Shown here piece after piece: positions 1,551 to 16,738 of a stretch of DNA of 60,797 nucleotides (position 1 is the stretch's first letter; each line of letters begins with the position of its first letter). The stretch covers positions 1-60,797 of the forward strand of contig CALYBE010000001.1 in the NCBI GenBank assembly GCA_944393735.1. The letters are read 5' to 3'. Both the position numbers and the translations under genes were made by a program. Below the pieces are notes generated by a model. That model was not told where the DNA came from, ran no database searches, and worked only from the letters and a program-made list of their open reading frames with translations. The DNA is from an uncultured Clostridia bacterium. Its GTDB lineage: Bacteria > Bacillota > Clostridia > TANB77 > CAG-508.

Positions 1551-3062
1551 TTGGGAGGAATAAAAAGAAGCGCTAAATCAGTTAGAGGAAAATTATTTCT
1601 TACACTATGTGTTGTAGTAATATCAATAATTCTATTCTTAATAATAGTAAACAGCTTTGTATTAGAAAAATATTATCAATTAACAAAAAGTAATACATTA
1701 AAATCTGTATATAACACAATAAATTTATACTATAGCGGAAAAATACAAGTAGACAGTATTCCAGATGAATTAGATAAAATATCTATAAGAAACGATTTTG
1801 ATATTATAGTAAAAGATGAAAATGGTGTAGCAATTTATTTATCTAATAAAGACTTTTTATTAAATATAAGAAAAATTATAGACTTTTGGGGAATGGATAG
1901 AATGCAAGAGTCAAGTTTAGTTGAAGAAACAGACAAAATAGAAATAAGAAAAATTAGTGATACAGAAACTAAAATAACATATATGTTATTAACAGGAAAA
2001 CTAGACAATGGATATATAACATATATTAGGCTACCTTTATCCTCAATTGAAGAAAGTGTAAGAATATCTAACAGGTTTTTATACTTAATTGCTAGTATTG
2101 TAATAATTGTAGGTGGATTTGCTATAACATATATATCTAAGCAGTTCAGTAAACCTATTTCAGAAATAAGTGCAATTGCAAAGAAAATGTCTAATTTAGA
2201 TTTTAGCCAAAAATACATGGTAACAGATGATGATGAAATAAATGAACTTGGCGAAAGTATAAATGTTATGTCAGAAAAACTAGAGAAAACTATAAATCAA
2301 TTAAGAAATACAAATATAGAGCTTGAAAGAGATATTGAGAAAAAATCAAAAATAGATGAAATGAGGAAAAGCTTTATTTCTGACGTTTCACATGAATTAA
2401 AAACTCCAATTGCATTGATTCAAGGATATAGTGAAGGTCTTGTCGAAAATGTAAACTCTGATCCAGAAAGTAGAAAATTTTATGCTGAAGTAATTTTAGA
2501 TGAAGCAGGAAAAATGGACAAGCTTGTAAGACAGTTAATTGAGTTAACTAGACTTGAATATGAAAAAAGAGAATTCAATAATAGAATATTTAATATTGTA
2601 GAATTGGAAAAAGAAATTGTTAGAAGCTCTAAAGTTATGCTAGAAGAAAAAAATGTACAAGTTGAGTTTGATACAGAAGAGAATATCAATGTATTTGCAG
2701 ATGATTTTTATATTAGTCAAATTATAACCAACTACTTAACTAATGCAATTAAACATGTTAAAGAGATTAACGGAGAGAAGCATATAAAAATAACTAATAC
2801 TGTTTTACCAGAAAAAAATAAGGTTAAAATAACTGTATTTAATACAGGTGATAATATTGCTAAAGAAAATTTATCTCGTATTTGGAATAGATTTTTCAAG
2901 GTAGATGAAGCTCGTAATAGAGAAGATGGTGGAAGCGGAATAGGTCTTTCTATTGTTAGAGCTATAATGAATAATTATGGAAATGACTTTGGGGTTGAAA
3001 ACAAAGTTGATGGAGTTGAGTTCTATTTTGAAGTTGATATGACTGATGCAAAGAAAGAATAA
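1551..3062 (+). CDS. Membrane sensor histidine kinase, cognate to the preceding regulator
   Basis: N-terminal TM segments are present. H-box SHELKTPI and ATP-binding boxes (NAIKH, GGSGIGLSIV) are present. TTG start lies 5 nt after GAGGA and 10 nt after the regulator gene. Confidence 0.9.
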   Translation: MGGIKRSAKSVRGKLFLTLCVVVISIILFLIIVNSFVLEKYYQLTKSNTLKSVYNTINLYYSGKIQVDSIPDELDKISIRNDFDIIVKDENGVAIYLSNKDFLLNIRKIIDFWGMDRMQESSLVEETDKIEIRKISDTETKITYMLLTGKLDNGYITYIRLPLSSIEESVRISNRFLYLIASIVIIVGGFAITYISKQFSKPISEISAIAKKMSNLDFSQKYMVTDDDEINELGESINVMSEKLEKTINQLRNTNIELERDIEKKSKIDEMRKSFISDVSHELKTPIALIQGYSEGLVENVNSDPESRKFYAEVILDEAGKMDKLVRQLIELTRLEYEKREFNNRIFNIVELEKEIVRSSKVMLEEKNVQVEFDTEENINVFADDFYISQIITNYLTNAIKHVKEINGEKHIKITNTVLPEKNKVKITVFNTGDNIAKENLSRIWNRFFKVDEARNREDGGSGIGLSIVRAIMNNYGNDFGVENKVDGVEFYFEVDMTDAKKE

Positions 3063-3146
3063 AATTTAATAATAAAGAGACTATCGTGAAAGTTGCGTAA
3101 ATCGGAAGGGAACCCGATATACACAACTTTTTCTATACTCTCAAAA

Positions 3147-3178
3147 TAAAAACGAGATTTTTTAAAATCTCGTTTTTT
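3147..3178. terminator. Bidirectional hairpin terminator (kinase gene on +; ancestral tRNA-Gln terminator on -)
   Basis: AACGAGATTTT / AAAATCTCGTT stem is flanked by an A-run and a T-run, and abuts the left island repeat. Confidence 0.55.
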
Positions 3179-3190
3179 GGTTGGGCTGGC
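3174..3190. repeat. Island-distal att direct repeat (attL-like)
   Basis: TTTTTGGTTGGGCTGGC is identical to 16494-16510. It duplicates the last 13 nt of tRNA-Gln plus 4 nt. Confidence 0.85.
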
Positions 3191-3278
3191 AAAATATCTT
3201 TTGTAGGAAATGCTCGAATTTTCAGGATTTATAGGTTTTAACTTAAGTTTTTCATGCAATTTTCATGCGATTTAAAAA

Positions 3279-4739
3279 TTAAGATGTTTTTTCTTGAAAT
3301 AAATTATATTTGTTTTTTATTTTGTCTAGAACTTCATATAGTACTTTTTTATCTAAGTCATCCAAACAAGTATTGCTAACTGATTGTTTTAGTTTATTAA
3401 GTTCTATACTAATTATTTTATCTTGATCTAGTTTTGAATAATTTAATCCTAATTCATTTAAATAATTTTCACTTTTTGCATTGTATTTGTTTTTGTATTC
3501 TGCAAAAGCATCAAAATAAGTATTTAAAGTCACTTCAATATCTTTGTGGCCTAATAGACACTTAAGAACCTCGGCTGGCATACCTGATTCTATTTTTCTT
3601 GTAGCATATGTATGTCTTAAAACATATTGAGTTTCATTCCAACCACTTCCTATATTATTTTTTTTACAAAATCTTTTAAAAGCACTATTAGAAGCGGAAA
3701 TTGATATAAAATTATTATCCCAAAATAAAAGATTATATTTATTTTCTTTCCTTTGAGCTAATAGTTCTTTGATTATTAATTTAGCATCATTATTTAAGTC
3801 AATAATTCTATCGCCAGAATATGTTTTAGTAGTATCTCCTAATATTGTTTTTCCATTCTTATCGTGTGTTAGTGTATTTTTAATATATATTTTATTTTCT
3901 GCAAAGTTAATATTGTTAATGTCAATAGCATAAACCTCTCCTGGTCTTAGTCCTAAATTTAACATTAATAGCCATGCTAATTTATATTTATTACTAGTTT
4001 CTTTTTTTATAGATTCAATAAATTTTTTTTGCTCAGATATAGTAAAAGCTTTTACTTTTTCAGTTTTGCATTTTGATTTTGGCCTTCTAAATTCATCTTT
4101 ATCATCTAGCGGATTTAAAATCAAAATTTTTTTTCGAACAGCTTTTATAAATGTAGCATTGAGTAAACCATAATCTTTTCCTATTACTGAATCAGAATAA
4201 GATGTTATATATTTTAAATATTTGTGTATATCGTTGTCTGTTACTTCCTGAGCTGGTTTGTTCATAAATTCATGTTGTCCTAATCTATTTAATTTGGCTA
4301 AATTTGCAATATATGAATTATCAGTAGTGATATTTTTGTCATGTCTATCTTCTACAATTGATTTAGCAATATCATATAAAGTTATTTTTGATTTATCAAC
4401 AATGGCGTCATTATTAATTTTATTTATTGTGTCTAAATTGTTTTTTGCAGCATCTTTTTTCTTTTTTGCGTATTTGGGTGTGGTTCTAGTGCCATCCTTT
4501 TTAGTTGCTTGGCTTACGCTTCTTTCATAAATATAATATCTATCACAATATTTTAAACAATTAATGCACTGTTTACATTTGTCACATAGTTTTTTACAAT
4601 CTTCTCTATTGTTGCACAAATTTTTGTTATTACAATTTTTACAAGTTTCACATATTTCGAGATTTGAATTATCTTTCTTTATTTTTTGAATAAATTCGTA
4701 AACGGAACCTTCTCCATTAGATCTTCTTCCTTTTTTCAT
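3279..4739 (-). CDS. Tyrosine site-specific recombinase (phage-type integrase) with a Cys-rich N-terminal insert
   Basis: Catalytic signatures are present: LGLRPGEV, YVLRHTYATR, LLGHKDIEVTLNTY. The N-terminus RRSNGEGSVYEF is typical of Firmicute integrases. There are 13 Cys between residues ~31 and 66. Confidence 0.9.
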   Translation of the reverse strand: MKKGRRSNGEGSVYEFIQKIKKDNSNLEICETCKNCNNKNLCNNREDCKKLCDKCKQCINCLKYCDRYYIYERSVSQATKKDGTRTTPKYAKKKKDAAKNNLDTINKINNDAIVDKSKITLYDIAKSIVEDRHDKNITTDNSYIANLAKLNRLGQHEFMNKPAQEVTDNDIHKYLKYITSYSDSVIGKDYGLLNATFIKAVRKKILILNPLDDKDEFRRPKSKCKTEKVKAFTISEQKKFIESIKKETSNKYKLAWLLMLNLGLRPGEVYAIDINNINFAENKIYIKNTLTHDKNGKTILGDTTKTYSGDRIIDLNNDAKLIIKELLAQRKENKYNLLFWDNNFISISASNSAFKRFCKKNNIGSGWNETQYVLRHTYATRKIESGMPAEVLKCLLGHKDIEVTLNTYFDAFAEYKNKYNAKSENYLNELGLNYSKLDQDKIISIELNKLKQSVSNTCLDDLDKKVLYEVLDKIKNKYNLFQEKTS

Positions 4740-4926
4740 AAATAACCTTCTTTCTAATATTTTTACTGTTCAAAAAAATAAAAAAGTTGAACTTTTAATA
4801 AAAAAACAGGTTACCTGTGGATAAGTGGTTCGTAAAATTGAATATTTACCATTTATTACCAGATAATATCTATAAAATCATAAAAATTTAAATTTACTCT
4901 TTTTTACTGAAAAATTAATCATTTTA

Positions 4927-4955
4927 TTGACAGTTTTTTTTTTTTTTATTATAAT
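4927..4955 (+). promoter_or_regulatory. Consensus sigma-A promoter (TTGACA-17-TATAAT) with a T14 tract in the spacer
   Basis: TTGACA at 4927-4932, TATAAT at 4950-4955, and a 17-nt spacer that includes T14 (4934-4947). It lies ~55 nt upstream of the first T7SS-locus gene. Confidence 0.65.
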
Positions 4956-5007
4956 GAACTCAAAGTTATCATTATAAATGATAATAAATTATAAAGGAGG
5001 AAAAAAT

Positions 5008-5622
5008 ATGGCACAGATTATGAATGTTGATTATGAAGCAATGCCAAATCAAGCAAAACAAATGAGACAATATGCTATTGAACTTAATAATGAATTTAAA
5101 ACAGCATACTCATATATAGGAGATATGCATAACTCATGGTATGGAGTTAGATACAATGAGTTAGTAAGAGATTTTAATAACTTAGCACCACAGGTAAATA
5201 AACTATTAAATTTAGTAGTTACAGAAATTCCATTTGCATTAGAAACAATTGCAAATAATTATTCACAAGCAGATAGAGGACAAAATGCAACAACAGCAGA
5301 AGAAACAACACCAAATAGAATTGAAGATTTACCAATAATAAATGATGTGGGAATGAGATTTATAACTGAAGATGTTGCTAACACACAAAGAGCTGTAACA
5401 GAAAAATTTGAATCAGTAAAAGAATTAATGAACAAAATTGAAGCAGAATATGGAAAAGTACAATGGCAAAGTGAAGCTTCAGATAGTTTTAAGGCAAGGT
5501 TTACACAATTAAAGAATGAAATAATGTCATCAATAGAGAATATAAACATACAATTCACAAAATTAATGAATCAAACAAAACAAGATATTGAAACAACAGA
5601 AAAATCAAATACTGTTCAATAA
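5008..5622 (+). CDS. Tandem WXG100-like protein (putative T7SS substrate), paralog 1
   Basis: AAGGAGG lies 8 nt upstream of ATG 5008. The first half has W44-Y-G46 in a helix-turn-helix context. The second half has W153-Q-S followed by ASDSFKARF, a WXG100-like pattern. The protein is 204 aa, about twice the WXG100 size. Confidence 0.6.
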   Translation: MAQIMNVDYEAMPNQAKQMRQYAIELNNEFKTAYSYIGDMHNSWYGVRYNELVRDFNNLAPQVNKLLNLVVTEIPFALETIANNYSQADRGQNATTAEETTPNRIEDLPIINDVGMRFITEDVANTQRAVTEKFESVKELMNKIEAEYGKVQWQSEASDSFKARFTQLKNEIMSSIENINIQFTKLMNQTKQDIETTEKSNTVQ

Positions 5623-5625
5623 TAT

Positions 5626-5693
5626 GAAAGCACATATATGTGCTTTCTAAAGTAATATACAAATATTATTTTAGAAAGCATATATATGCTTTG
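5626..5693 (+). terminator. Two similar tandem hairpins after the WXG-like gene (attenuator or partial terminator)
   Basis: GAAAGCACATATATGTGCTTTC (5626-5647) and AAAGCATATATATGCTTT (5675-5693). Confidence 0.4.
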
Positions 5694-5721
5694 TTAGAAA
5701 AATTGAAAGGAGAATTTGACT

Positions 5722-6012
5722 ATGGAAAAAAGTTTTTTACCAATAGGTACAGTATTAAAATTAAAAGGGAGTAAAAAAAGATTAATGATAACAGGTTTTT
5801 TTCCAATTGAAAATGATAAAACAGAAGAAAATAAAAAAATGTGGGATTATAGTGGTTGTTTATATCCAGAAGGGATAATATCATCAAAAAACAATTTTTT
5901 ATTTAATCATAATCAAATAGATGAAGTTCAATTTATGGGATTTGTTGACGAAGAAGAAAAAAAATTTGAAGAAACAATGAAAAAAGCAATAGAAAAATTA
6001 TATAATAATTAA
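5722..6012 (+). CDS. DUF4176-like small protein (T7SSb-locus associated)
   Basis: The pattern LPIGTVLKLKGSKKRLMITG...WDYSGCLYPEG...FNHNQIDEVQFMGFVDEEE matches my recollection of the DUF4176 family. AAAGGAG lies 9 nt upstream of ATG 5722. Confidence 0.7.
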   Translation: MEKSFLPIGTVLKLKGSKKRLMITGFFPIENDKTEENKKMWDYSGCLYPEGIISSKNNFLFNHNQIDEVQFMGFVDEEEKKFEETMKKAIEKLYNN

Positions 6013-6031
6013 ACTAAGAGAGTGGAAAGTT

Positions 6032-9000
6032 ATGTTAGTAACACTAATTGGAAAAAATACTTTATATAAATTGAAATTACCAAATGAACATGATGGTAAT
6101 TATTGGATTAAAAATGATAATGAAACAAAGTTAGTTAATATTTTTGGAAGAAAAGATGAATGGCAAATATGTAGTAATGAACAAGTTAAAATATTGGCAC
6201 CAAAATCAATAACTTCTTTTAATATATCTAAGATAAAAGATGATCCAAAAAATATAATTAATAAAGTAGTGCTAAGAGAAGGAGGCATCTATTACTTAGC
6301 ATTAGATGCAGATCCTAATATTTTATTTATATTACTTTGTGAATCTATTTATGAAAGAAATTTTATACATTTACAAGTTACAGATTTTAAAAATATAACA
6401 ATTGGTAGAAGTCAAACGTGTGATATAGTTTATGATAATCCATTAATAGAACCATTACAAGCAAAAATTTTTTTGAATAATGAGAAATTGATGATTAAAA
6501 ACTTTGATACTAATTATGGAACTTTTTTAAATAATATACCAGTATCAAATAAGTTAAAACTACTTTTTTATGGTGAGATGATATTTATTATGGGATTAAG
6601 GATTGTAATTGTTGGAAAAAATATTTTTATAAACAATCCTTATAATAGAGTAACATACAATCATGAAAAATTTCAAATTATAAAAAATAATCATGAAATA
6701 ATTACTTCAATGGAAAAAAAAGATGAAAATGTAAAATTACTTTCAAAAGATGATTTTTTTACAAGAGCACCTAGGATAATTGGTAAGATTGAAAAGGAAA
6801 AGATAAAGATTGACCCTCCACCACAAAAGCAAGAAAAAAATGATAAACCATTAATATACATCATAGGACCAAGTATAGCAATAAGTATTGTTATGTTAAT
6901 GTCTTTGATATCAACAATAAGTGGTGCTTCAGGAGGAAATTCATCAAAAGCAAGAATAGTTATGTCAGTAATTACAATAGGTGCAATGTTAATAAGTATA
7001 ATACTTTTTCCAATATTAAACAATAAATATGAAAAAAAGAAAAAGAAAAAAAGAGAACAAAAAAGACAAAAAAAATATAAAGAATATATAGAAAAAAAAT
7101 TGGAACAAATAGATGATGTAATGCAAAAACAAAAGAATATTTTATTTGATGAATTTTTATCTTCAGAGGATTGTGCACAAATAATTTTGAATAAAGGCTC
7201 AAGACTTTGGGAGAGAAGAATAAATGATGATGATTTTCTTTCAATAAGAGTTGGATTAGGAAATGTACCATTAGAAGCTGATATAGAATATCCCAATAAA
7301 GAGTTTTCATTAGAAGAAGATAATTTGTTGGATTTAATAAAATATGTGGCAAATAAATCAAAATTGATTAAAAATGCTCCAATAGTAGTATCACTCACTT
7401 CTAAAAATATAGCAGCCTCAATCATAGAAAATGATGAAAGAAATACAGAAAAATTTATACAAAATTTAGTTATGCAATTAATAGCACTACATAGTTATGC
7501 GGATTTGAAAATAGTGTTTTTTTTAAAAAAAGGAAAACAAATAAAATGGGAACATATGCAAACGATTCCACACATTTGGGATAATCAAAGGCAGATAAGA
7601 TTTTGGGCAGATGACTATGAAGAAATGAAAGAAATATCAAGATATTTAGAGGTGGAATTTAATGAGAGAAAAAAATATGGAGATAAATTTGATTATAAAA
7701 CATTTTCTCCATACTATTTAATAATAACTGATGACTATAAAACAATTGCAAACTTAAAAATAGTTACAGAAATTTTAAGTATAAGAAAAAATATAGGGTT
7801 TAGTTTATTCTGTATAACTGATAATTTCATTAATTTACCTAATGAATGCCAATTATTTATAAGCATAGATGGAAATAAAGGGAAGATATTTGAAAACAAA
7901 ATAACAGAAACAACTCAAAATGAATTTTATTTTGATAATTCATTTACATTCTTTTTTGAAAATATGGGTCCAATATTATCGAATATACAAATAAGGGAAA
8001 ATACAACATCAAAATTTTCTTTACCAGAAAGTTATACATTTTTAGAAATGTATGATGCAGGAAGAATAGAACAATTAAATATATTACAGAAATGGAGAAC
8101 AAATGATTCAACTAAATCATTACAAGCACCTATAGGAATAGATATAAATGGTAATCAAATAGTATTAGATATACATGAAAAAGTACATGGACCACATGGC
8201 TTAATTGCTGGAAGTACCGGTTCTGGAAAGAGTGAATTAATAATAACTTATATACTGTCTTTAGCAGTAAATTATCATCCTAATGATGTTGAAATTATTT
8301 TAATAGATTATAAAGGAGGAGGACTATCAGGAGCTTTTCAAAAAGGAGATGTAAAGTTGCCTCATATAGTTGGAACAATTACAAATATAGATAAAGCAGG
8401 TTTACAAAGGTCACTTGTATCTATACAAAGTGAATTAAGAAGGAGACAAGTAAAATTTAATCAAGCACGAGAAAAAACAGATGAAGGAACAATTGATATA
8501 TATAAATATCAGAAATTATATCATGATGGACAGGTAAGTGAGCCAATACCACATTTATTAATAATTTGTGATGAATTTGCTGAATTAAAACAACAACAAC
8601 CAGATTTTATGGATGAATTAATGAGTGTCGCTAGAATAGGACGTAGTTTAGGTGTACACTTAATATTATCAACACAGAAACCAGCTGGTATAGTAAATGA
8701 CCAAATACGTAGTAATAGTAGATTTGAAATTTGTCTAAGAGTACAAGATAGGCAAGACAGTATTGATGTAATAAAAAGACCAGATGCAGCTGATATTAAA
8801 AATGCTGGACAGTTTTATATGTTAGTTGGAAATGATGAATATTTTACTTTTGGACTTTCTGCTTGGTCTGGAGCAAGTTATGAACCATCTGATATTATAA
8901 AGAAAAGTATAGATACTTCAATTAAATTTGTTTCTAATACAGGTTCTGTAATAAAAAAAATAGATGATAATCATAAAAAGGTTCCAATAAAGAAAAAAGA

Positions 9001-10612
9001 AGAACAATTAACAAATATTGTAAAATACATATATGAATTAGGAAAAAGTGAAAATATTAAGCTAAAACCATTATGGTTAGATACACTGCCAAATGTAATT
9101 TTATTAAATGAAATAAAGAAAAAGTATAATATAACTAAAAAAGCTGAAGATATAGTACCAGTGATTGGTGAATATGATGACCCATATAATCAAAGACAAG
9201 GTGTTGTGGAATTAAACTTTAAAAAGCAAGGTAATACAATTATATATGGAAATGCTGAAAGTGGTAAAGAGACTTTAATAAGTACAATGATATTTGATAT
9301 AATTTCAACATATGATGTAGATGAAGTACAATTATATTTATTAGATTTTGGTAGTGAAACATTAAAAATTTTTAATAATGCACCACATGTAGGAGACGTA
9401 GTTTTAAGTTTGGATTCAGAAAAAATAAGTAGATTATTTGAAATGCTTCAAAAAGAAATGAAAAGAAGAACAGAATTATTATCTAATTATGGTGGAGACA
9501 TAAAATTATATATAAAAGATACTAGAAATGCAATGCCACAAATTATAATTGTAATAAATAATTATGAAGGATTTGTAGAAAACTATGGTGAAAAATATGA
9601 TGATGTTTTACTTACTCTATGCAGAGAAGGTATAAAATATGGAATAATATTTGTATTATCAGTTAGTTCATATAACAGTATAAGATATAGATTATTACAG
9701 AATTTTAAGCAAAAAATAGCATTGCAATTGAATAATGAAGATGATTATAACAATATATTAGAAGGAATAAAAAAACAAAGACCATCACATATATTTGGTC
9801 GAGGTTTAATAAGATATGATGATATATATGAATTCCAAACAGCAACAATATGTAAAGCAGAAGAATGGAATTTATATGTAAGAAAAAAAATAGAAAAATT
9901 AAATGAAAAGTATACTAAAAAGGCTACCCCAATACCTGTATTACCAAAGAAAGTAGATATAAATGATATAAAAGAAAAAATAAAAAGTTTGGATAAATTA
10001 CCAATAGGTATATATAAATCAAATTTAAGTATAGCAACTTATGATTTTAAAAATAGTTTTATTAATATTATATCTGCAAAAAATACAGAGGTTGTTGCTG
10101 AATTTTTAATACATATTTATGAAATTTTAAAACTTATTGAAGATGTTAATATTGAAATATTTGATGGAGAAGGAATTATACGAAACAATTCAAATAATAT
10201 TAAACTTGAATATAAAAATTTTTTATTCAAAATGCAAAATAATCTAGATAAATCAAAATATAATGTATGTATAATTATTGGAATTGATAAGTTTTTAACA
10301 AGTATAGATAGTGATTTTATCCAAGATTTAAAAATAGCAGAAGAAACAAAAAAATATATATTTATTATTGCTGATAGTGTTTACAAACTAAAAAATCATG
10401 AATATGATGACTGGTATAAAAAATTTGTTACAAAAGATAAGGGAATTTGGATTGGAAATGGAATAAGTGATCAATATTTATTACATTTAAATTCAATTAA
10501 TAGAAATATTATAAATAATTGTGGAAATAGTTTTGGATATATTATTGAACAAGAAGAAGCAAAAATGATTAAGCTTGTAGGAATGAAAGATGTTGGTGAT
10601 GAAAATGAATAA
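6032..10612 (+). CDS. essC: T7SS EssC/YukB-type FtsK-SpoIIIE ATPase with N-terminal FHA-like domains
   Basis: The protein is 1526 aa. FHA-like segments are present (ITIGRSQTCDIVYDNP...GTFLNN). Two TM helices lie around aa 280-330. P-loop 1 is GSTGSGKS with Walker B LLIICDEFAEL. P-loop 2 is GNAESGKET. The third module is degenerate. Confidence 0.9.
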   Translation: MLVTLIGKNTLYKLKLPNEHDGNYWIKNDNETKLVNIFGRKDEWQICSNEQVKILAPKSITSFNISKIKDDPKNIINKVVLREGGIYYLALDADPNILFILLCESIYERNFIHLQVTDFKNITIGRSQTCDIVYDNPLIEPLQAKIFLNNEKLMIKNFDTNYGTFLNNIPVSNKLKLLFYGEMIFIMGLRIVIVGKNIFINNPYNRVTYNHEKFQIIKNNHEIITSMEKKDENVKLLSKDDFFTRAPRIIGKIEKEKIKIDPPPQKQEKNDKPLIYIIGPSIAISIVMLMSLISTISGASGGNSSKARIVMSVITIGAMLISIILFPILNNKYEKKKKKKREQKRQKKYKEYIEKKLEQIDDVMQKQKNILFDEFLSSEDCAQIILNKGSRLWERRINDDDFLSIRVGLGNVPLEADIEYPNKEFSLEEDNLLDLIKYVANKSKLIKNAPIVVSLTSKNIAASIIENDERNTEKFIQNLVMQLIALHSYADLKIVFFLKKGKQIKWEHMQTIPHIWDNQRQIRFWADDYEEMKEISRYLEVEFNERKKYGDKFDYKTFSPYYLIITDDYKTIANLKIVTEILSIRKNIGFSLFCITDNFINLPNECQLFISIDGNKGKIFENKITETTQNEFYFDNSFTFFFENMGPILSNIQIRENTTSKFSLPESYTFLEMYDAGRIEQLNILQKWRTNDSTKSLQAPIGIDINGNQIVLDIHEKVHGPHGLIAGSTGSGKSELIITYILSLAVNYHPNDVEIILIDYKGGGLSGAFQKGDVKLPHIVGTITNIDKAGLQRSLVSIQSELRRRQVKFNQAREKTDEGTIDIYKYQKLYHDGQVSEPIPHLLIICDEFAELKQQQPDFMDELMSVARIGRSLGVHLILSTQKPAGIVNDQIRSNSRFEICLRVQDRQDSIDVIKRPDAADIKNAGQFYMLVGNDEYFTFGLSAWSGASYEPSDIIKKSIDTSIKFVSNTGSVIKKIDDNHKKVPIKKKEEQLTNIVKYIYELGKSENIKLKPLWLDTLPNVILLNEIKKKYNITKKAEDIVPVIGEYDDPYNQRQGVVELNFKKQGNTIIYGNAESGKETLISTMIFDIISTYDVDEVQLYLLDFGSETLKIFNNAPHVGDVVLSLDSEKISRLFEMLQKEMKRRTELLSNYGGDIKLYIKDTRNAMPQIIIVINNYEGFVENYGEKYDDVLLTLCREGIKYGIIFVLSVSSYNSIRYRLLQNFKQKIALQLNNEDDYNNILEGIKKQRPSHIFGRGLIRYDDIYEFQTATICKAEEWNLYVRKKIEKLNEKYTKKATPIPVLPKKVDINDIKEKIKSLDKLPIGIYKSNLSIATYDFKNSFINIISAKNTEVVAEFLIHIYEILKLIEDVNIEIFDGEGIIRNNSNNIKLEYKNFLFKMQNNLDKSKYNVCIIIGIDKFLTSIDSDFIQDLKIAEETKKYIFIIADSVYKLKNHEYDDWYKKFVTKDKGIWIGNGISDQYLLHLNSINRNIINNCGNSFGYIIEQEEAKMIKLVGMKDVGDENE

Positions 10613-10856
10613 AGTATTAGTAAAAGTATATGTACCTATGTTAGAAGAAATTTATGATGTATGGATTCCTACTAATAAAAAAGTATATGAAATTATAGTA
10701 TTATTGGTGAAAGCGATTAAAGATTTAAGTGAAAAATGTTATAATCCAAAAGAATTCCCAACATTATATGATAAAATAACAGGAAATGAATTCGATTTAA
10801 ATTTATTATTAAATGATACAACAATAAAGAATGGAACAGAATTGGTTTTAATATAA
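10605..10856 (+). CDS. esaB: YukD/EsaB-like small ubiquitin-fold T7SS protein
   Basis: The 83-aa product overlaps the essC stop by 8 nt. Position, size and N-terminal beta-strand pattern (VLVKVYVP...YDVWIP) fit YukD/EsaB. Confidence 0.6.
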   Translation: MNKVLVKVYVPMLEEIYDVWIPTNKKVYEIIVLLVKAIKDLSEKCYNPKEFPTLYDKITGNEFDLNLLLNDTTIKNGTELVLI

Positions 10857-10884
10857 TACCAAAGTATTTTGAAAGGAAGATATA

Positions 10885-11712
10885 ATGAAAACACTAAAAT
10901 ATGAAAATATTGATCAGAACAAAGACAGTTCCAATGTTAGTATAAATGAGTTGTTAAAAGAGGATAAGCAATTAGTTTCTTTTATTGGACCAAGACAGAG
11001 TGGAACATCATTTCTTATAGATAATATATCAAAAATATTAGCTAGAAGAGATATAGATGTTGCAATATTAGATTTGACATCAAATAGAGCATCATATTAT
11101 ATATATACAAAAAATGAAGAAAAATTAAAACAACAACAAAAAAACTGCCTAAAAAATATAGCAGAGGGTAATCCATTAGGAATTCAAGTTGAAAAAAACT
11201 TAGTAGTTTATACAGATCTACAACGAGAAAATGAAAAAGACTTAAAAGCAGAAAAAATATTAGAAGTATTGTTAAAAAAACATAAAATAATAATTTTAGA
11301 TACTGACTTTTCAACTGATGTAAGTTACTTTTTATATTCTAAAAAAATATATTTAGTGCAGACAATGGATGTTCTAACTATCCAATCATTTACAGAATTT
11401 TTATCTAAATTAAAATTGCAAAATGCTATAAATGATGAGAAAATAAGAGTTGTGTTAAATAAATTTATAAATTTAAATGGAATTACAGAAAAAGAATTAA
11501 TAAATAGATTAGCATTTTATAATGATCCGACAAAATCATATATGCAACAATTATTTGAGAAAAATGGATTAAAGTATACAACAATTCCATATAATCAGCT
11601 TGCATATGAAACATATTTACAATATATGGCAGAATATAAAATAACTAAAGTTGAATATATAATAGGTTTTAAAAACCAACTAGATGGTTTAGCAGATGAT
11701 GTTATAAGTTAA
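10885..11712 (+). CDS. ParA/MinD-fold (SIMIBI) protein with a degenerate Walker A
   Basis: VSFIGPRQSGTSFLIDNISKILA sits at the P-loop position and lacks both lysines. A Walker-B-like IIILDTD and VVLNKF are present. Confidence 0.55.
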   Translation: MKTLKYENIDQNKDSSNVSINELLKEDKQLVSFIGPRQSGTSFLIDNISKILARRDIDVAILDLTSNRASYYIYTKNEEKLKQQQKNCLKNIAEGNPLGIQVEKNLVVYTDLQRENEKDLKAEKILEVLLKKHKIIILDTDFSTDVSYFLYSKKIYLVQTMDVLTIQSFTEFLSKLKLQNAINDEKIRVVLNKFINLNGITEKELINRLAFYNDPTKSYMQQLFEKNGLKYTTIPYNQLAYETYLQYMAEYKITKVEYIIGFKNQLDGLADDVIS

Positions 11713-11751
11713 AATATTTAAATTAAAATTAAAAGGAAGGAATGATTCACA

Positions 11752-11922
11752 TTGGATAGTAAAACTTTTTATACAAATAGTATAAATAAAAAATTTACAA
11801 CAATTAGTGGTAAAGATAAATTAAAAGGAGAATTATTCACAAAACTTATTGAACAAACAAATGAAATGATTGATAATACAAATACAAATAAAGATAATAT
11901 ACTAAAAAATATAAAAAAATAG
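11752..11922 (+). CDS. Small 56-aa helical protein upstream of the effector (below the ORF-track size cut-off)
   Basis: A TTG start lies 11 nt after AAAAGGAAGG. The frame is open to TAG at 11920-11922, which overlaps the RBS of the next gene. Product: LDSKTFYTNSINKKFTTISGKDKLKGELFTKLIEQTNEMIDNTNTNKDNILKNIKK. Confidence 0.4.
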   Translation: MDSKTFYTNSINKKFTTISGKDKLKGELFTKLIEQTNEMIDNTNTNKDNILKNIKK

Positions 11923-11935
11923 TTAGGAGGAAAGT

Positions 11936-13759
11936 ATGTTTAGTTTTTGCGAAGATGTATTTAATGAATTATGTACAAGCTTAGAGAATACAATACAAGA
12001 AATAATAACAGAAGCTAATGATAGTAAAAGTAGCGCAGAGACATTAAAACAAGAAGCAGTAGCATTAAGAGAACAAGCAGCAGAATTAAGGGAACAAGCA
12101 GTAGCATTAAGAGAACAAGCTAAAGCATTAAGAGCACAAATTCCAGGTTTAAGGGAACAAGCAGCAGTACTTTATGCAAAGCAAGAATGGAAAACAGTAA
12201 CTTCAACAGTAACAAATTCAGAAACAGGAGAAGAAGAAACAGTAAGTGAAACTGTAAGAGATTATGAAGCAGAGGCCGCCAATCAAGCACAAGCAGCAGC
12301 ATTGGAATCACAAGCAAATGCACTAGAAGTACAAGCAGCCGAACTAGAATCACAAGCAAACTCAAAAGAAGCAGAAGCTACAGTAAAAGAAGCAGAAGCA
12401 ATAGCAAAAGAAGCAGAGGCTGCAGCACTAGAATCATTATCATCAGTTTTGACAGCATCATCTGAAGCAATAGGATCACAAATAAACACATTTAAGGAAG
12501 CAAAAGTAGAAGTAGAAAAAGCTACAAATGCAACAACATCATTATTAAATGAGGGATTAAATTTAATTTCTAGTTCTTTAAGTGCAATAAGTAATGCAAG
12601 TAATTTTATAATAGGTGATTGGGGAAATGGATTAGCTTCAAATATAATAGAGAATGTTGGGACTGAAATAAAGGGAGGAATTGAAAAACTCCAAGAAATG
12701 GCAAATGAAGTTATAGATAATGTAAAAATAGCTACAACAAATGTACAAGAATTTACTAGTGAAATTGGAAATTATATTATGGAAAGTCCTTTAGGACAAG
12801 CAGCAAAAGAATTTATAGATGGTTTTACAGAACAGAATGTAGAAAGTTTGATTGATCAAAATAGAGCGAAATTAGCTAATAATATTGTATCTGCACTAAC
12901 TTTTTTTGGAGCGGATCCGGAATTTATAGAGACTATCATGGGAGATTCTGTCACAATAGAGCTAACAAATTCAGTGGAAACATTTGAAGAAGCAAAAGCA
13001 GAAGCAAAAAGATTATATGTAGAATATATAAATGGATTAGATTATACTGATGAAGAAAAACAACAATTAATTAATAAATTTAATACTGCCGTGGACAATA
13101 TAGAAGTGTTATCTGATCAGGATATGGCTAAATTAATGGGTAATGGTGATAGTGGTTTTATAACATTGGCATTTTACAATGGACCATTGGATAAAGCATA
13201 TATAAGAGAATCATCAAAAATAGACGTAGCAACAATAATTCATGAAGTAGGAGGACATGGAACAGGAAGCATGATACCACCTGAATATCAAGGGTATCAT
13301 TACTTTGATGAAGAACTTCAAAGATATGTAAAATATGAAGGAAATTTTGAGGATGCAGATTGCTTTTTACTATATATGTCAACTTCAGATAAAAATGGAA
13401 CAATTTATGCTGGAATTGATGAGGCAACTACGGAATATTTTACAAGAAAAATATATGGAGAAGTAGAAAGTACCAGTGCATATAACGGAAGTACTGATAC
13501 ATTAGAAAGTATTACTGAATCAATGAAAGAATATTGTGGTATTGATGGTGAGAAATTATTGTATGAAACATATACTGGAGAAGATAAAGATGCATTTAAG
13601 AATGTATATAATGAAATTATGGGAGATGATACAGCTTATGATGAATTAACTAATATAATGTATTCTAATAATACACAAGGTGGTTCTGAATTTACTTTGG
13701 ATGTTGAAGCATTTGCATTTGATGTAAAATGCAAGCAATACAAACAACAGAAAAAATAA
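11936..13759 (+). CDS. Putative T7SS-secreted effector: coiled-coil repeat N-terminus with a C-terminal H-E-x-x-x-H domain
   Basis: The protein is 607 aa with no signal peptide or TM segment. It has Ala/Glu/Gln-rich heptad repeats, and HEVGGH at aa 436-441. It lies inside the T7SS-like locus, followed by a small gene. Confidence 0.5.
   Translation: MFSFCEDVFNELCTSLENTIQEIITEANDSKSSAETLKQEAVALREQAAELREQAVALREQAKALRAQIPGLREQAAVLYAKQEWKTVTSTVTNSETGEEETVSETVRDYEAEAANQAQAAALESQANALEVQAAELESQANSKEAEATVKEAEAIAKEAEAAALESLSSVLTASSEAIGSQINTFKEAKVEVEKATNATTSLLNEGLNLISSSLSAISNASNFIIGDWGNGLASNIIENVGTEIKGGIEKLQEMANEVIDNVKIATTNVQEFTSEIGNYIMESPLGQAAKEFIDGFTEQNVESLIDQNRAKLANNIVSALTFFGADPEFIETIMGDSVTIELTNSVETFEEAKAEAKRLYVEYINGLDYTDEEKQQLINKFNTAVDNIEVLSDQDMAKLMGNGDSGFITLAFYNGPLDKAYIRESSKIDVATIIHEVGGHGTGSMIPPEYQGYHYFDEELQRYVKYEGNFEDADCFLLYMSTSDKNGTIYAGIDEATTEYFTRKIYGEVESTSAYNGSTDTLESITESMKEYCGIDGEKLLYETYTGEDKDAFKNVYNEIMGDDTAYDELTNIMYSNNTQGGSEFTLDVEAFAFDVKCKQYKQQKK
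12056..12160 (+). repeat. Five tandem 21-nt (7-aa) coding repeats
   Basis: Units start at 12056, 12077, 12098, 12119 and 12140. Units 1 and 3 are identical (GCAGTAGCATTAAGAGAACAA). They encode A(V/A)(A/E)LREQ. Confidence 0.9.
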
Positions 13760-13782
13760 TGTGGAAAGGAGATTAAATTAAA

Positions 13783-14292
13783 ATGGAAAATAATACAGTA
13801 ATAGAAGACTTAACAAAAGAGTTTGTAAATACAATTCCAAATGATGAAGATAAACAAGAATTGAAACAAGCATTCGAAAAATATTTATATGAATATAAAA
13901 AAGTACTAGAAAAATCTAATATAAATTCAATTGATGATGCATTAAAATTCTCAGCAAATAAAATAATGAAATTGCCATTATATAGTAAAAAACAAAAGCT
14001 AATTGAAGACGAGAGTTTTAAAGAAATACAAAAAATTTCATCAAAAGCTTTTGAACTAGCAAAAAAAGTTGTAACAGGAAAAAAAGAAGATATAGATAAG
14101 AATTTGCTAGAAGAAATGAAAAATAAGCTAAAGATATGTTTAAATGATGTAAGAGAATTTAATAAGCAACAAGCAAGTATGCTAGTTTCTGAGGGGATAT
14201 TAGATTTAGTGTTTGTAGAAAATCCAAAAACACATTTAATAAGTATAAGATTGGGAAAAAATGCAATTAGGTTAAAAAATAATATGAATTAA
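13783..14292 (+). CDS. Hypothetical cytoplasmic helical protein; candidate immunity or chaperone partner of the effector
   Basis: The 169-aa product starts 23 nt after the effector stop. It has a GGAG RBS and no hydrophobic segments. No domain is recognised. Confidence 0.35.
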   Translation: MENNTVIEDLTKEFVNTIPNDEDKQELKQAFEKYLYEYKKVLEKSNINSIDDALKFSANKIMKLPLYSKKQKLIEDESFKEIQKISSKAFELAKKVVTGKKEDIDKNLLEEMKNKLKICLNDVREFNKQQASMLVSEGILDLVFVENPKTHLISIRLGKNAIRLKNNMN

Positions 14293-14341: not shown

Positions 14342-14953
14342 ATGAGTCTAACGATAACAGTAGACTATGAGAATATACCAGGACAATCTAGTCAAGCGAG
14401 AAATATTGGAATGCAAATAAATGAAATACTATTAGATGTATATAGAAATGTAACTAATATGCATAATTTCTGGTATGGAAAAAGATATAATGATATTGTA
14501 ACAAATTTTAATAGTTTAGTGCCTCAACTAAATAACTTCTTAGAAATAGTTGTATCAGAAATTCCATATATATTTGAGAAAATAGTAAATAATTTCTCTG
14601 AGGTAGATATTAAACAAAATATGACAGTAGCTCAAAAAGAAAGTGTACAACAAATTCAAACAATTCCATTATCTACAGAAGTAGGAATGAAGTATATTCA
14701 AGGGGAAGTGGCTAATATACAAAATGCAATAGAATCAGATTTTCATGAAATAATAAGTCTAATGAGTGGATTAGAAAATACAATAAATCAAATAGGAATA
14801 GAATATGAAACAGCTGATAATTTTAAGTCAGAGTTTAAAAGTTTAGCTAATTCATTTAGACAATTTATAGAAAATCTAGAAAGACAATTTACAAATGCAA
14901 TGAATGTAAATAGAACTCAAATACAAAAAGCAGAGTCAGGAAATACAATTTAA
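14342..14953 (+). CDS. Tandem WXG100-like protein, paralog 2
   Basis: It has the same architecture and conserved blocks as 5008-5622 (MHNFWYGKRYNDIV..FN.L.PQLN...VVSEIPY...NNFSE.D). GGAGG RBS. Confidence 0.6.
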   Translation: MSLTITVDYENIPGQSSQARNIGMQINEILLDVYRNVTNMHNFWYGKRYNDIVTNFNSLVPQLNNFLEIVVSEIPYIFEKIVNNFSEVDIKQNMTVAQKESVQQIQTIPLSTEVGMKYIQGEVANIQNAIESDFHEIISLMSGLENTINQIGIEYETADNFKSEFKSLANSFRQFIENLERQFTNAMNVNRTQIQKAESGNTI

Positions 14954-15253: not shown

Positions 15254-15781
15254 ATGTTTGAAAAAAATGGAGTCATAGGAAATACACCAATGATAAAAAT
15301 AAATTATAAATACAATGGAAAAGAAAAAAGGATATTTACCAAATTAGAATATTTTAATTTAACAGGAAGTATAAAAGACAGAGTTGCATTTTATATAATT
15401 AATAATGCTAAAAAAAGAGGAATTTTGAAAGAGAAAATGCCAATAGTTGAAGCTACAAGTGGAAATACAGGAATAGCATTATCAGCATTAGGAAGTTATT
15501 ACAAACATCCAGTATATATCTTTATGCCAGATTGGGCTAGTAAAGAAAGAATTGAAATAATGAAAAGCTATGGTGCAAAAATATTTTTATTTTCAAGAGA
15601 AGATGGTGGATTCATAAGATGTGTAAATGAGGCAGAAAAATTGGCAAAAGAAATAAATGGATTTTGGGCTAATCAATTTTCTAATAAAGATAATTATCTG
15701 GCTCACTATGAAATAACAGGAGAAGAGATATTAAGACAGCTTCCAGAAAAAATAATAGTTGCAATTCATATATTAATGTAA
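15254..15781 (+). pseudogene. cysK: Truncated cysteine synthase (CysK/CysM family) fragment
   Basis: The N-terminal ~165 aa match the PLP cysteine synthase pattern (GNTPM, SIKDR, TSGNTGIALS). The frame ends at 175 aa, before the GTGGT loop; full-length enzymes are ~300 aa. Confidence 0.7.
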
Positions 15782-15822
15782 TATAATGATAGTGAATAAA
15801 GATGTTGAAAGGGGGAATTGCA

Positions 15823-16323
15823 ATGGAAGAAAATATAAAATACAAAAATGATATAGTACAAGATGCATATTATCTAATAAAAAAATTTAAAGATGATGGA
15901 AAAAGTGTAACTAATTTACAAATACAAAAATTAATGTATTTTTTTGAAGCATATTATATGAATGTATATGATGTTGATAAATTGTATGATTGTAATTTTT
16001 GTGCATGGGCATATGGACCTGTAGCAATTCCACTATATAAAGAGCTAAAGAAATTTGGAAATGACAATATAGAATTGACAGAAGAAAATATAGATAGTGC
16101 AGAAAAGGTTTTTGAAGACAAAAAGAAATTACTAGACCAAATATATAATGTATTTAAAGATGTACCAGCAATGACCCTTGTAGATTTTACACATATGACT
16201 GGTTCTCCGTGGAAAGAAGTGTGGGAAAGAAACGGAGAAAAAGTAGGATATGGTGCAAATACATATATAGACAAAATAAAAACGAAAGAATGGTTTAAAG
16301 ATGTCTTCCAGAAAAGAACATAA
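15823..16323 (+). CDS. Panacea (DUF4065, SocA/GepA-like) domain protein; putative antitoxin
   Basis: NLQIQKLMYFFEAYY...FCAWAYGPVAIPLYKELKKFG matches the DUF4065 core. GGGGG RBS lies 7 nt before ATG 15823. Confidence 0.7.
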   Translation: MEENIKYKNDIVQDAYYLIKKFKDDGKSVTNLQIQKLMYFFEAYYMNVYDVDKLYDCNFCAWAYGPVAIPLYKELKKFGNDNIELTEENIDSAEKVFEDKKKLLDQIYNVFKDVPAMTLVDFTHMTGSPWKEVWERNGEKVGYGANTYIDKIKTKEWFKDVFQKRT

Positions 16324-16420
16324 ATTTGAAATAACAATCCCACGAAATGAAACTATAAATGAAAATTTTAATGCAATAACTAATGCAATAGGAAAAAAAT
16401 TTTTAAATATTTCCAAATAA
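16301..16420 (+). CDS. 39-aa ORF overlapping the 3' end of the Panacea gene (speculative partner)
   Basis: ATG 16301 to TAA 16418-16420, product MSSRKEHKFEITIPRNETINENFNAITNAIGKKFLNISK. It overlaps the upstream gene by 23 nt and has no clear RBS. Confidence 0.2.
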   Translation: MSSRKEHKFEITIPRNETINENFNAITNAIGKKFLNISK

Positions 16421-16493
16421 ATACAGTTAAAATTGTGGAAAACTAGTGATGTCAACTATTCCTAGATAATAAAAAATACCCTCAAATAGGGTA

Positions 16494-16510
16494 TTTTTGG
16501 TTGGGCTGGC
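16494..16510. repeat. tRNA-proximal att direct repeat (attR-like)
   Basis: TTTTTGGTTGGGCTGGC is identical to 3174-3190 and overlaps the tRNA-Gln 3' end. Confidence 0.85.
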
Positions 16511-16572
16511 TAGATTCGAACTAGCGCATGTTAGAGTCAAAGTCTAATGCCTTACCGCTTGGCTACAGCCCA
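16498..16572 (-). tRNA. tRNA-Gln (anticodon UUG)
   Basis: The reverse complement UGGGCUGUAGCCAAGCGGUAAGGCAUUAGACUUUGACUCUAACAUGCGCUAGUUCGAAUCUAGCCAGCCCAACCA folds as a cloverleaf. Anticodon loop is CUUUGAC, T-loop is UUCGAAU, and CCA is encoded. Confidence 0.9.
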
Positions 16573-16660
16573 GTATTAAATATTTTTTGTGGATATAGTC
16601 CTCATACTGATGCAAAATTTGCAATATCGAACATTGAAATCCACTCTTTTTGGAAAGTTA

Positions 16661-16738
16661 TGGGGTGGAAGATGGGACTCGAACCCACGGTCTCCAGTGC
16701 CACAAACTGGCGCGTTAACCAACTACGCTACATCCACC
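16661..16738 (-). tRNA. tRNA-His (anticodon GUG) with extra G-1
   Basis: The reverse complement is GGUGGAUGUAGCGUAGUUGGUUAACGCGCCAGUUUGUGGCACUGGAGACCGUGGGUUCGAGUCCCAUCUUCCACCCCA. Anticodon loop is UUGUGGC, G-1 pairs with C73, and CCA is encoded. There is one U:U mismatch in the acceptor stem. Confidence 0.85.

What the first reader, a model, noticed from the sequence alone, without database searches (positions are those of the whole stretch)
4927..4955. T14 homopolymer inside the 17-nt spacer of a perfect TTGACA/TATAAT promoter driving the T7SS-like locus
Seen in the sequence: TTGACA (4927-4932), the spacer G-T14-AT (4933-4949) and TATAAT (4950-4955), about 55 nt upstream of the first locus gene. 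Established knowledge: slipped-strand mispairing in homopolymer tracts within promoter spacers changes the -35/-10 spacing. This is a known phase-variation mechanism in several bacteria. Inference: the current spacer is the optimal 17 nt (ON state), and a gain or loss of T residues would weaken the promoter. That would give stochastic ON/OFF control of a costly or antagonistic secretion system.
Basis: partly seen in the sequence, partly recalled or inferred. Interest (0 to 1): 0.65.

Follow-up and report, generated by a model that had tools for sequence, protein, structure and literature searches.

The report
Conserved T7SS promoter with T14 spacer
The T14 run really does sit inside a perfect promoter in front of a type VII secretion locus of an uncultured chicken-gut Clostridia bacterium, but comparison with about 25 strain samples and about 60 related loci shows a promoter whose 17-base spacing is strictly kept, so it looks like an ordinary strong promoter and not a demonstrated on/off switch.

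Summary
Next come DUF4176 and a true EssC (TIGR03928, 1008 bits).

The promoter call is well supported:
- It is the only 12/12 match in the window (0.08 expected).
- TATTGACA, a 17-nt spacer and TATNAT are conserved in about 60 orthologous loci with at least 10 different spacer sequences.
- A conserved 5'-UTR hairpin follows.

The phase-variation reading is not supported at strain level:
- Thirteen ENA assemblies and eight of nine Logan runs keep a 17-nt spacer.
- Two variant alleles are point substitutions that keep the length (G-T16; G-T13-AAT).
- One low-depth (4.8x) contig reads T15.
- Position by position, T14 equals the sister clade's T7-A-T6 with one A-to-T change.
- Other clades have T10, T6 or T4.

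So the run is a lineage-specific by-product of a T-rich, fixed-length spacer.

Within-population slippage could not be tested, because no raw reads or RNA runs were available. In E. coli, consensus promoters tolerate 16-18 bp spacers, so a slip would more likely retune expression than switch it off.

Interest is low.

The parts
4927..4932 (+). -35 hexamer TTGACA; the octamer TATTGACA from 4925 is invariant in relatives
   Evidence: Invariant in the alignment of 8 lineages and in about 60 orthologous loci.
4933..4949 (+). 17-nt spacer G-T14-AT
   Evidence: The spacer is 17 nt in every orthologous promoter that has TTGACA, across at least 10 different spacer sequences.
4934..4947 (+). T14 homopolymer, specific to this lineage
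   Evidence: Alleles in the same lineage are T14 (majority), T16 reading as a T17 run (L002/L099, A4948 to T), T13-A (L100, T4947 to A) and T15 (X13, depth 4.8). The sister clade has T7-A-T6 in the same columns.
4950..4955 (+). -10 hexamer TATAAT (TATTAT or TATCAT in relatives)
4965..4985 (+). 5'-UTR inverted repeat or RNA hairpin, UUAUCAUUA-UAA-AUGAUAAU, starting a few nt after the inferred transcription start (about 4962)
   Evidence: Folding energy is -5.8 kcal/mol with z = -3.3. It is conserved in 10 lineages, with two pairs showing compensatory change (U-A, U-G, C-G) and a variable loop length. The start site itself is inferred, not mapped.
4996..5000 (+). Ribosome-binding site GGAGG, 7 nt before the ATG
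   Evidence: Invariant in relatives.
5008..5622 (+). First gene: a 204-aa protein with an N-terminal WXG100 domain and a C-terminal ESAT-6-like half
   Evidence: Pfam WXG100 at E = 3e-11. TIGR03930 scores 48.7 bits against a cut-off of 44.85, and NF035934 matches residues 121-199.
5627..5692 (+). Very stable conserved stem-loop after the first gene, probably a terminator/attenuator or a 3' stabiliser
   Evidence: Folding energy is -33.5 kcal/mol with z = -7.7. Equivalent hairpins of -25 to -37 kcal/mol are present in 5 other lineages. It also appears as a terminator-like hit. The function is inferred.
5722..6012 (+). DUF4176 gene
   Evidence: Pfam PF13780 at E = 6e-28. Gene callers give 96 aa.
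6032..10612 (+). essC, the T7SSb FtsK/SpoIIIE ATPase with an FHA domain
   Evidence: TIGR03928 T7_EssCb_Firm scores 1007.7 bits against a cut-off of 778.4. Pfam finds FtsK_SpoIIIE and FHA.

Best explanation
This is the conserved, strong housekeeping-sigma (sigma-A / sigma-70 type) promoter of a T7SSb-like operon in an uncultured, low-GC chicken-gut Clostridia lineage related to Clostridium sp. CAG:245. RNA polymerase recognises TATTGACA and TATAAT held 17 bp apart (inferred from consensus and conservation). The transcript probably starts near 4962, opens with a small conserved 5' hairpin, and encodes the abundant WXG100-like substrate. A large conserved stem-loop after that gene probably limits read-through into DUF4176 and essC (inferred). 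The spacer of this promoter family is T-rich and its length is under strong purifying selection (shown by comparison). The T14 run is a lineage-specific by-product. Column by column it equals the sister clade's T7-A-T6 spacer with one A-to-T substitution, and further substitutions in the same lineage give T16 or T13-A without changing the length. It is therefore not an evolved contingency tract. Occasional slippage in a 14-base run is likely as an unavoidable side effect. Off-length variants do not become established in gut populations. By analogy with consensus E. coli promoters, they would lower expression and not silence it.
For: 1. The site is the only perfect promoter in the window, with 0.08 expected.
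2. In about 60 orthologous loci (57-100% protein identity), every promoter with TTGACA has a 17-nt spacer, across at least 10 distinct spacer sequences, with -10 = TATNAT and 49-60 nt to the ATG.
3. Conservation begins at or just upstream of -35 even where the upstream context is unrelated: integrase, IS element, pfkB, sua5, hlyIII.
4. Within the window's lineage, 13 ENA assemblies and 8 of 9 informative Logan runs have a 17-nt spacer. These are 11 ENA assemblies plus 8 runs with T14, one G-T16 and one G-T13-AAT. Both variants are substitutions, even though contigs differ by SNPs 20-60 bp upstream and by an IS insertion.
5. A positive control shows that assemblies do record homopolymer length change where it is unconstrained. 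A terminator T-run about 60 nt upstream of -35 in the sister clade reads T9, T10 and T11 among six otherwise identical contigs, while their spacers are identical.
6. The T-run is not conserved: T7-A-T6, T10, T6, T4.
7. The conserved 5'-UTR hairpin with compensatory changes places the transcript start upstream of it.
8. In E. coli consensus-promoter libraries, 16 bp is as strong as 17 bp, and the 16-, 17- and 18-bp libraries reach the same ceiling (PMC8695583).
Against: T14 is far longer than any other T-run in a window where runs of 9 or more are depleted. A run this long is intrinsically slippage-prone. In H. pylori the T14 sabA tract varies 13-16 within a strain (PMC2715451). One Logan contig (X13) reads T15. 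Several low-depth contigs end inside or beside the tract (X12, X16, L107, L108), which could reflect read-length heterogeneity. Consensus sequences cannot exclude a minority OFF or low subpopulation. No transcription start site or expression data exist. The mismatch-repair status of the organism is unknown. ENA assemblies and Logan runs may partly derive from the same samples, and X1 is a synthetic metagenome that is probably not independent of the window.
Confidence: 0.62

Rival explanations
1. This is the first reader's model: a slipped-strand contingency switch or rheostat. Replication slippage in T14 changes the -35/-10 spacing from 17 to 16 or 18 nt. That would create reversible subpopulations with reduced or absent T7SS expression, as bet-hedging for a costly antagonistic system.
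For: The tract lies exactly in the spacer of a perfect promoter. It is an extreme outlier in run length against a background depleted of long runs. One T15 consensus was found in X13. Contigs break at the tract in four low-depth assemblies. The mechanism has precedent in the M. hyorhinis vlp poly-A tract (PMC10502178) and the H. pylori sabA poly-T tract (PMC2715451).
Against: No length polymorphism was seen among 13 ENA assemblies and 8 of 9 Logan runs, whereas established phase-variable tracts differ between strains (sabA is 14 against 18). Two substitution alleles preserve the length. The tract is absent from orthologous promoters, which keep 17 nt with non-repetitive spacers, so no switch is conserved. 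The T15 call rests on one contig at 4.8x, where homopolymer sequencing error is plausible. Consensus hexamers tolerate 16-18 bp in E. coli.
Confidence: 0.2
2. The T-tract is selected for its physical properties, not its mutability. A rigid, narrow-groove, easily melted A/T tract in the spacer would tune promoter strength, supercoiling response or temperature response, or exclude or attract a DNA-binding protein.
For: All orthologous spacers are T-rich on the non-template strand, 11-16 of 17 positions in the nine clades nearest the window, against 29% T in the genome, so composition as well as length looks constrained. Spacer sequence alone changed strength about 10-fold, and AT-rich spacers were relaxation-tolerant, in E. 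coli (PMC8695583).
Against: Relatives function with interrupted runs as short as T4, so an uninterrupted tract is not required. Nothing here measures bending, melting or protein binding. The T-richness may partly reflect mutational bias in a 26% GC genome.
Confidence: 0.12
3. The run is an assembly or sequencing artefact of the window.
For: The only other long run in the window (A17 at 38847-38863, inside radA) is not reproduced in four other runs, which read AAATTTAATCGAAAAAA there.
Against: The identical T14 promoter is present in 11 independent ENA assemblies from three studies and in at least 7 independent Logan runs.
Confidence: 0.01

Closest known systems
Mycoplasma hyorhinis vlp promoters (poly-A tract between -35 and -10; Citti and Wise 1995, as summarised in PMC10502178)
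   Same: Both have an A/T homopolymer of similar length inside the spacer of a sigma-70-type promoter in a low-GC bacterium of Firmicutes ancestry. The optimal spacing is 17 nt (that figure is from my own knowledge of the 1995 paper).
   Different: In vlp, tract length differs between ON and OFF clones and the tract is present in all vlp genes. Here length is fixed across strains and the tract is absent from orthologous promoters. Mycoplasmas lack mismatch repair (own knowledge); the status here is unknown.
Helicobacter pylori sabA promoter poly-T tract (PMC2715451; PMC11162790)
   Same: Both are T-tracts of about 14 nt in a promoter region, and in sabA the effect is rheostat-like and not strictly ON/OFF.
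   Different: The sabA tract lies beside the -35 box, not between the hexamers (own knowledge). It varies 13-16 within one strain and 14 against 18 between genomes. No such variation is seen here.
Neisseria meningitidis porA/opc and Haemophilus influenzae hifA/B spacer repeats (own knowledge; Neisseria overview in PMC5084427)
   Same: In both, a simple sequence repeat in the -35/-10 spacer sets the spacing and so the promoter strength.
   Different: Those are poly-G/C or TA repeats with documented inter-strain length polymorphism and graded expression. The genes are surface antigens, not a secretion machine.
Firmicute T7SSb operons led by esxA/yukE (S. aureus ess, B. subtilis yuk; own knowledge)
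   Same: A WXG100 gene comes first, behind a strong promoter. It is followed by a stem-loop and then the machinery genes including essC.
   Different: Here the first protein is a 204-aa double-length WXG100-like protein. No EssA, EssB or EsaA homologue was recognised, and a ParA/MinD-like gene is present. Known regulation of those systems is by transcription factors, not by repeats.

Membership tests
Sigma-70/sigma-A type promoter | -35 and -10 hexamers close to TTGACA and TATAAT, separated by 16-18 bp | tested here: met
   A 12/12 match with a 17-bp spacer, unique in the window, with 0.08 expected.
Sigma-70/sigma-A type promoter | Elements conserved in orthologous loci at a fixed position upstream of the gene | tested here: met
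   TATTGACA, a 17-nt gap and TATNAT are invariant, 49-60 nt from the ATG, in about 60 loci.
Sigma-70/sigma-A type promoter | Transcription start about 7 nt downstream of -10 | not testable with these tools
   No RNA run holds the stretch. Only the conserved 5'-UTR hairpin supports a start upstream of 4965.
Simple-sequence-repeat phase-variable (contingency) promoter | A repeat tract long enough to slip, located where its length affects expression | tested here: met
   T14 fills 14 of the 17 spacer positions.
Simple-sequence-repeat phase-variable (contingency) promoter | Tract length differs between strains or isolates | tested here: not met
   Of 22 sample-level consensus sequences, 21 keep a 17-nt spacer. 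The variants G-T16 and G-T13-AAT are substitutions. One T15 contig was found at 4.8x depth.
Simple-sequence-repeat phase-variable (contingency) promoter | Length heterogeneity within a population above technical background | not testable with these tools
   All runs are served only as assembled contigs. Contig ends at the tract in X12, X16, L107 and L108 are ambiguous.
Simple-sequence-repeat phase-variable (contingency) promoter | Length change switches expression reversibly | not testable with these tools
   This needs reporter or expression data. E. coli data suggest tolerance of 16-18 bp with consensus hexamers.
Type VIIb secretion system locus | An EssC-type FtsK/SpoIIIE ATPase | tested here: met
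   TIGR03928 scores 1007.7 bits against a cut-off of 778.4.
Type VIIb secretion system locus | A WXG100 substrate gene | tested here: met
   TIGR03930 scores 48.7 bits against a cut-off of 44.85 for the first gene. The second copy at 14342-14953 is below the cut-off.
Type VIIb secretion system locus | Membrane components EssA, EssB and EsaA, and EsaB/YukD | tested here: not met
   The ORFs at 10590-14292 have no Pfam or NCBIfam match to these families. Only a weak CbiA/ParA-like hit was found. Divergent homologues are not excluded.

The most novel reading that the evidence does not exclude
The T14 spacer tract is a recently arisen, still functional slippage rheostat. It would give this chicken-gut Clostridia lineage heterogeneous expression of its T7SSb and effector genes. 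That would be the first repeat-mediated phase variation of a type VII secretion system, caught at its origin by a single A-to-T substitution in a T7-A-T6 spacer.
Probability: 0.12. Interest if true: 0.55.

Novelty: already known. Interest (0 to 1): 0.2.

Why it matters
If the tract were a working switch, it would extend repeat-based phase variation to T7SS-mediated bacterial antagonism in gut Firmicutes. It would also show how a contingency tract can be born by one point mutation in a T-rich spacer. As the evidence stands, the value is more modest:
- It defines, by comparison alone, the promoter, 5'-UTR hairpin and post-esxA stem-loop of a T7SSb-like operon family in uncultured gut Clostridia.
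- It gives a clean example of strict 17-bp spacing being held by selection while the spacer sequence drifts.
- It cautions against reading any long homopolymer in an AT-rich genome as a phase-variation device.

Tried and rejected
- Raw-read heterogeneity. Three run searches returned only Logan contigs and no RNA runs, so neither deep-read tract lengths nor transcript 5' ends could be examined.
- JGI metagenome scan for the promoter with a variable gap. It gave 0 hits.
- Genome contigs. The window's own species is not among the representatives; the nearest hit is 78% identical.
- The contig breaks at 4766/4768 in X3, X5 and X10 first looked like an island boundary. They are an IS insertion polymorphism.
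- The A17 run in radA was tried as a within-genome control for homopolymer stability. It turned out not to be reproduced in other runs, and the exact protein is not on record. It is unusable as a control, but it prompted the artefact check on T14, which T14 passed.
- Several runs that hold 95-100% of the sampled words (X3, X5-X8) laid no contig on 4800-5100. This was not resolved, and those runs were not counted.
- A palindromic-operator reading of the 5'-UTR repeat was considered. It is less likely than an RNA hairpin because the loop length varies from 3 to 7 nt and a U-G intermediate occurs.
- Literature search for phase-variable T7SS. No relevant paper was found.

Full report
**Observation**

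The sequence reads cattttaTTGACAgTTTTTTTTTTTTTTatTATAATgaac. TTGACA is at 4927-4932, G at 4933, T14 at 4934-4947, AT at 4948-4949 and TATAAT at 4950-4955. The consensus scan ranks it as the only 12/12 site in 3000-8000. TTGACA-N17-TATAAT occurs once in the whole window on both strands, against 0.08 expected from shuffles.

The first gene starts at ATG 5008, seven nt after GGAGG (4996-5000), so the -10 box ends 52 nt upstream.

T14 is a run-length outlier. A Markov-1 model expects 0.009 T-runs of 14 or more. The window is otherwise depleted of long runs: A-runs of 9 or more are 2 observed against 20 expected, and there is no T-run of 9-13.

**What the promoter drives**

- The first gene (5008-5622) encodes a 204-aa WXG100-like protein. 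Pfam gives E = 3e-11 and TIGR03930 scores above its cut-off. The C-terminal half is also ESAT-6-like.
- Next come DUF4176 (5722-6012) and a true EssC (6032-10612; TIGR03928 at 1008 bits against a cut-off of 778).
- After those are an 88-aa ORF, a ParA/MinD-like ORF, a 607-aa helical protein with no family match, a 169-aa ORF and a second WXG100-like gene.
- No EssA, EssB or EsaA was recognised. 'T7SSb-like' is therefore fair, but the machinery is atypical or divergent.

The organism is an uncultured Clostridia lineage at 26% GC, found in chicken-gut metagenomes. Its nearest named relative is Clostridium sp. CAG:245.

**Is it the functional promoter?**

I fetched orthologous loci in three ways:
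- exact-protein look-ups of homologues at 74-100% identity;
- representative genomes;
- metagenome contigs.

In every locus that has TTGACA upstream of the gene, the spacer is exactly 17 nt and the -10 box is TATNAT, 49-60 nt from the ATG. There are about 60 such loci and at least 10 different spacer sequences. The multiple alignment is ungapped from TATTGACA through the -10 box.

Conservation starts at or just before -35, even where the upstream neighbour is unrelated. In the window it is an integrase. In L001-type contigs it is the integrase plus an IS element. In L009 and L100 it is pfkB, in the 84% clade sua5, and in the 81% clade hlyIII.

Downstream of the inferred start site lies a small hairpin at 4965-4985. 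Its energy is -5.8 kcal/mol with z = -3.3. It is conserved in ten lineages, with U-A / U-G / C-G and C-G / U-A replacements and a variable loop.

This is as strong as comparative evidence for a promoter gets without RNA data. No RNA run was available.

**Is the T-run a length switch?**

*Within the window's own lineage* (identical or 89%-identical first gene), the samples break down as follows:

| Source | Samples | Spacer allele | Spacer length |
|---|---|---|---|
| ENA assemblies, three studies | 11 | G-T14-AT | 17 |
| ENA assembly L002 = L099 | 1 | G-T16 (A4948 to T), reading as a T17 run | 17 |
| ENA assembly L100 | 1 | G-T13-AAT (T4947 to A) | 17 |
| Logan runs X1, X2, X4, X9, X10, X11, X14, X15 | 8 | T14, no gap | 17 |
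| Logan run X13 | 1 | one extra T (one 221-nt contig, depth 4.8, ending five nt past the -10 box) | 18 |

- X12, X16, L107 and L108 have contigs that end in or at the tract and are uninformative.
- The T14 contigs are not clones of one sequence. They differ by three SNPs within 60 bp upstream, by a 1.4-kb IS insertion at 4768-4784, by a deletion in the integrase and by the pfkB context.
- A 14-base run should gain or lose units far faster than single bases are substituted (established knowledge of slippage). Two substitution alleles against at most one indel allele therefore means that length change is selected against.
- A positive control exists. In the 84% clade, a terminator T-run about 60 nt upstream of -35 reads T9 (four contigs), T10 and T11 in otherwise identical contigs, while their spacers are identical. 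Assemblies therefore do register homopolymer length change where it is tolerated.

*Across lineages*, the run is not conserved:

| Lineage | Spacer |
|---|---|
| 84% clade | A-T7-A-T6-AT |
| 81% clade | ATACA-T10-AT |
| 74-78% clades | ATATTTTTTGTTATTGG, TTATTTTTTGATATTGG and TTTAAATTTTGTATTGT |

Aligned column by column without gaps, the window's spacer differs from the 84% clade only at position 1 (G/A) and position 9 (T/A). T14 is simply T7 and T6 fused by one A-to-T substitution. Most spacers are T-rich: 11-16 of 17 positions in the nine clades nearest the window, falling to 5-9 in three more distant ones. A long run is therefore an expected occasional outcome of drift in such a spacer.

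In E. coli synthetic libraries with consensus hexamers, 16-bp spacers were on average as strong as 17-bp ones. The 16-, 17- and 18-bp libraries reached the same ceiling, and spacer sequence alone gave about 10-fold variation (PMC8695583). A perfect TTGACA/TATAAT pair is therefore the kind of promoter least likely to be silenced by plus or minus one base.

Established promoter tracts behave differently from this one. The H. pylori sabA T-tract is 13-16 within one strain and 14 against 18 between genomes (PMC2715451). M. hyorhinis vlp genes all carry the poly-A tract and switch with its length (PMC10502178).

**Conclusion**

The best-supported reading (0.62) is an ordinary, conserved, strong sigma-A promoter with a fixed 17-bp T-rich spacer, in which T14 is a lineage-specific by-product.

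The switch or rheostat model keeps 0.2. The tract is long enough to slip, one T15 consensus exists, and minority variants were untestable.

A structural role for the T-tract gets 0.12.

An artefact is excluded for T14, but not for the A17 run in radA.

**Limits**

- There were no raw reads, no RNA data and no isolate.
- ENA assemblies and Logan runs may overlap in samples.
- X1 is a synthetic metagenome that reproduces even the window's private A17, so it is probably derived from the same assembly.
- The mismatch-repair status of the organism is unknown.
- The functions given for the two hairpins are inferences.

Noticed in passing
window 38847-38863 (inside radA, 37645-39006): An A17 run encodes RRIKKKKKKRLKEA in RadA (TIGR00416, 610 bits). 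Contigs of X2, X4, X10 and X9 read AAATTTAATCGAAAAAA here. That is the same length with six bases different, and it gives the usual RRINLIEKRLKEA. Only X1 (a synthetic metagenome) reproduces A17, and the exact protein is absent from the gene index. It is probably an assembly or consensus artefact, or a private variant, of the window's source.
   Followed up: yes
window 5627-5692; also L012, L019, L036, L037, L097 after the first gene: A very stable stem-loop (-33.5 kcal/mol, z = -7.7) lies between the WXG100-like gene and DUF4176. It is conserved at -25 to -37 kcal/mol in five other lineages. GTGCTTTC can pair either with the upstream GAAAGCAC or with the downstream GAAAGCAT, so alternative structures are possible. 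It is a likely terminator/attenuator or stabiliser that sets the ratio of substrate to machinery.
   Followed up: partly
window 4965-4985: A conserved 5'-UTR hairpin (TATCATT..AATGATA) starts a few nt after the inferred transcription start. It shows compensatory changes across lineages. It may be a 5' mRNA stabiliser or a regulatory site.
   Followed up: partly
window 4768-4784; L001, L003, L005, L007, L008, L010, L011: A 1.4-kb insertion (DDE_Tnp_1 transposase plus a 110-aa ORF) is flanked by the duplicated 17 bp at 4768-4784, about 145 bp upstream of -35, in many contigs. The same contigs carry a deletion in the integrase (428 aa against 486 aa). The promoter is unchanged.
   Followed up: yes
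window 7031-7044 (essC); L007: One assembly (ERZ16268111) has a 14-nt deletion between two GAAAAAAAGA repeats in the lysine-rich stretch of essC, splitting the gene into 344-aa and 1189-aa ORFs. L008's contig ends at the same spot. This is either natural inactivation of the T7SS by repeat slippage in the coding sequence or an assembly error.
   Followed up: partly
L012-L017, about 60 nt upstream of -35: The T-run of the sua5 terminator reads T9 (four contigs), T10 and T11 among otherwise identical contigs. This is real or technical homopolymer length polymorphism at an unconstrained site. It was used as a control.
   Followed up: yes
L009/L103 and L100, immediately upstream of -35: In the pfkB context the 12-mer AAAATTAATAAT is repeated three times in tandem right before TATTGACA. 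Homology to the window starts only at 4910.
   Followed up: no
L011 (ERZ16268121): The same upstream region and T14 promoter drive an 89%-identical WXG100-like gene that is followed by unrelated small ORFs instead of DUF4176 and essC. The promoter and first gene behave as a cassette that recombines into other contexts.
   Followed up: no
window 41236-51768: A 3510-aa three-module NRPS (three each of condensation, AMP-binding and PP-binding domains) carries a terminal NAD-binding reductase domain. A 7TM histidine kinase follows it. The architecture resembles the peptide-aldehyde NRPSs of gut Clostridia (own knowledge).
   Followed up: no
window 3279-4739 (-), 15254-16737: A tyrosine recombinase with a Cys-rich N-terminus lies divergent from the T7SS promoter. 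At the far end of the locus are a truncated CysK (175 aa), a SocA/Panacea antitoxin-domain gene, and tRNA-Gln and tRNA-His. The T7SS region may be part of a mobile or rearranging island.
   Followed up: no
whole window: Homopolymers of 9 or more bases are strongly depleted relative to a Markov-1 expectation (A: 2 against 20). There are 14 A-runs and 7 T-runs of 8, and almost nothing longer.
   Followed up: yes
runs X3, X5-X8: The word index says these runs hold 95-100% of 4768-7500, yet no contig was laid on 4800-5100. This discrepancy between the tools was not resolved.
   Followed up: no
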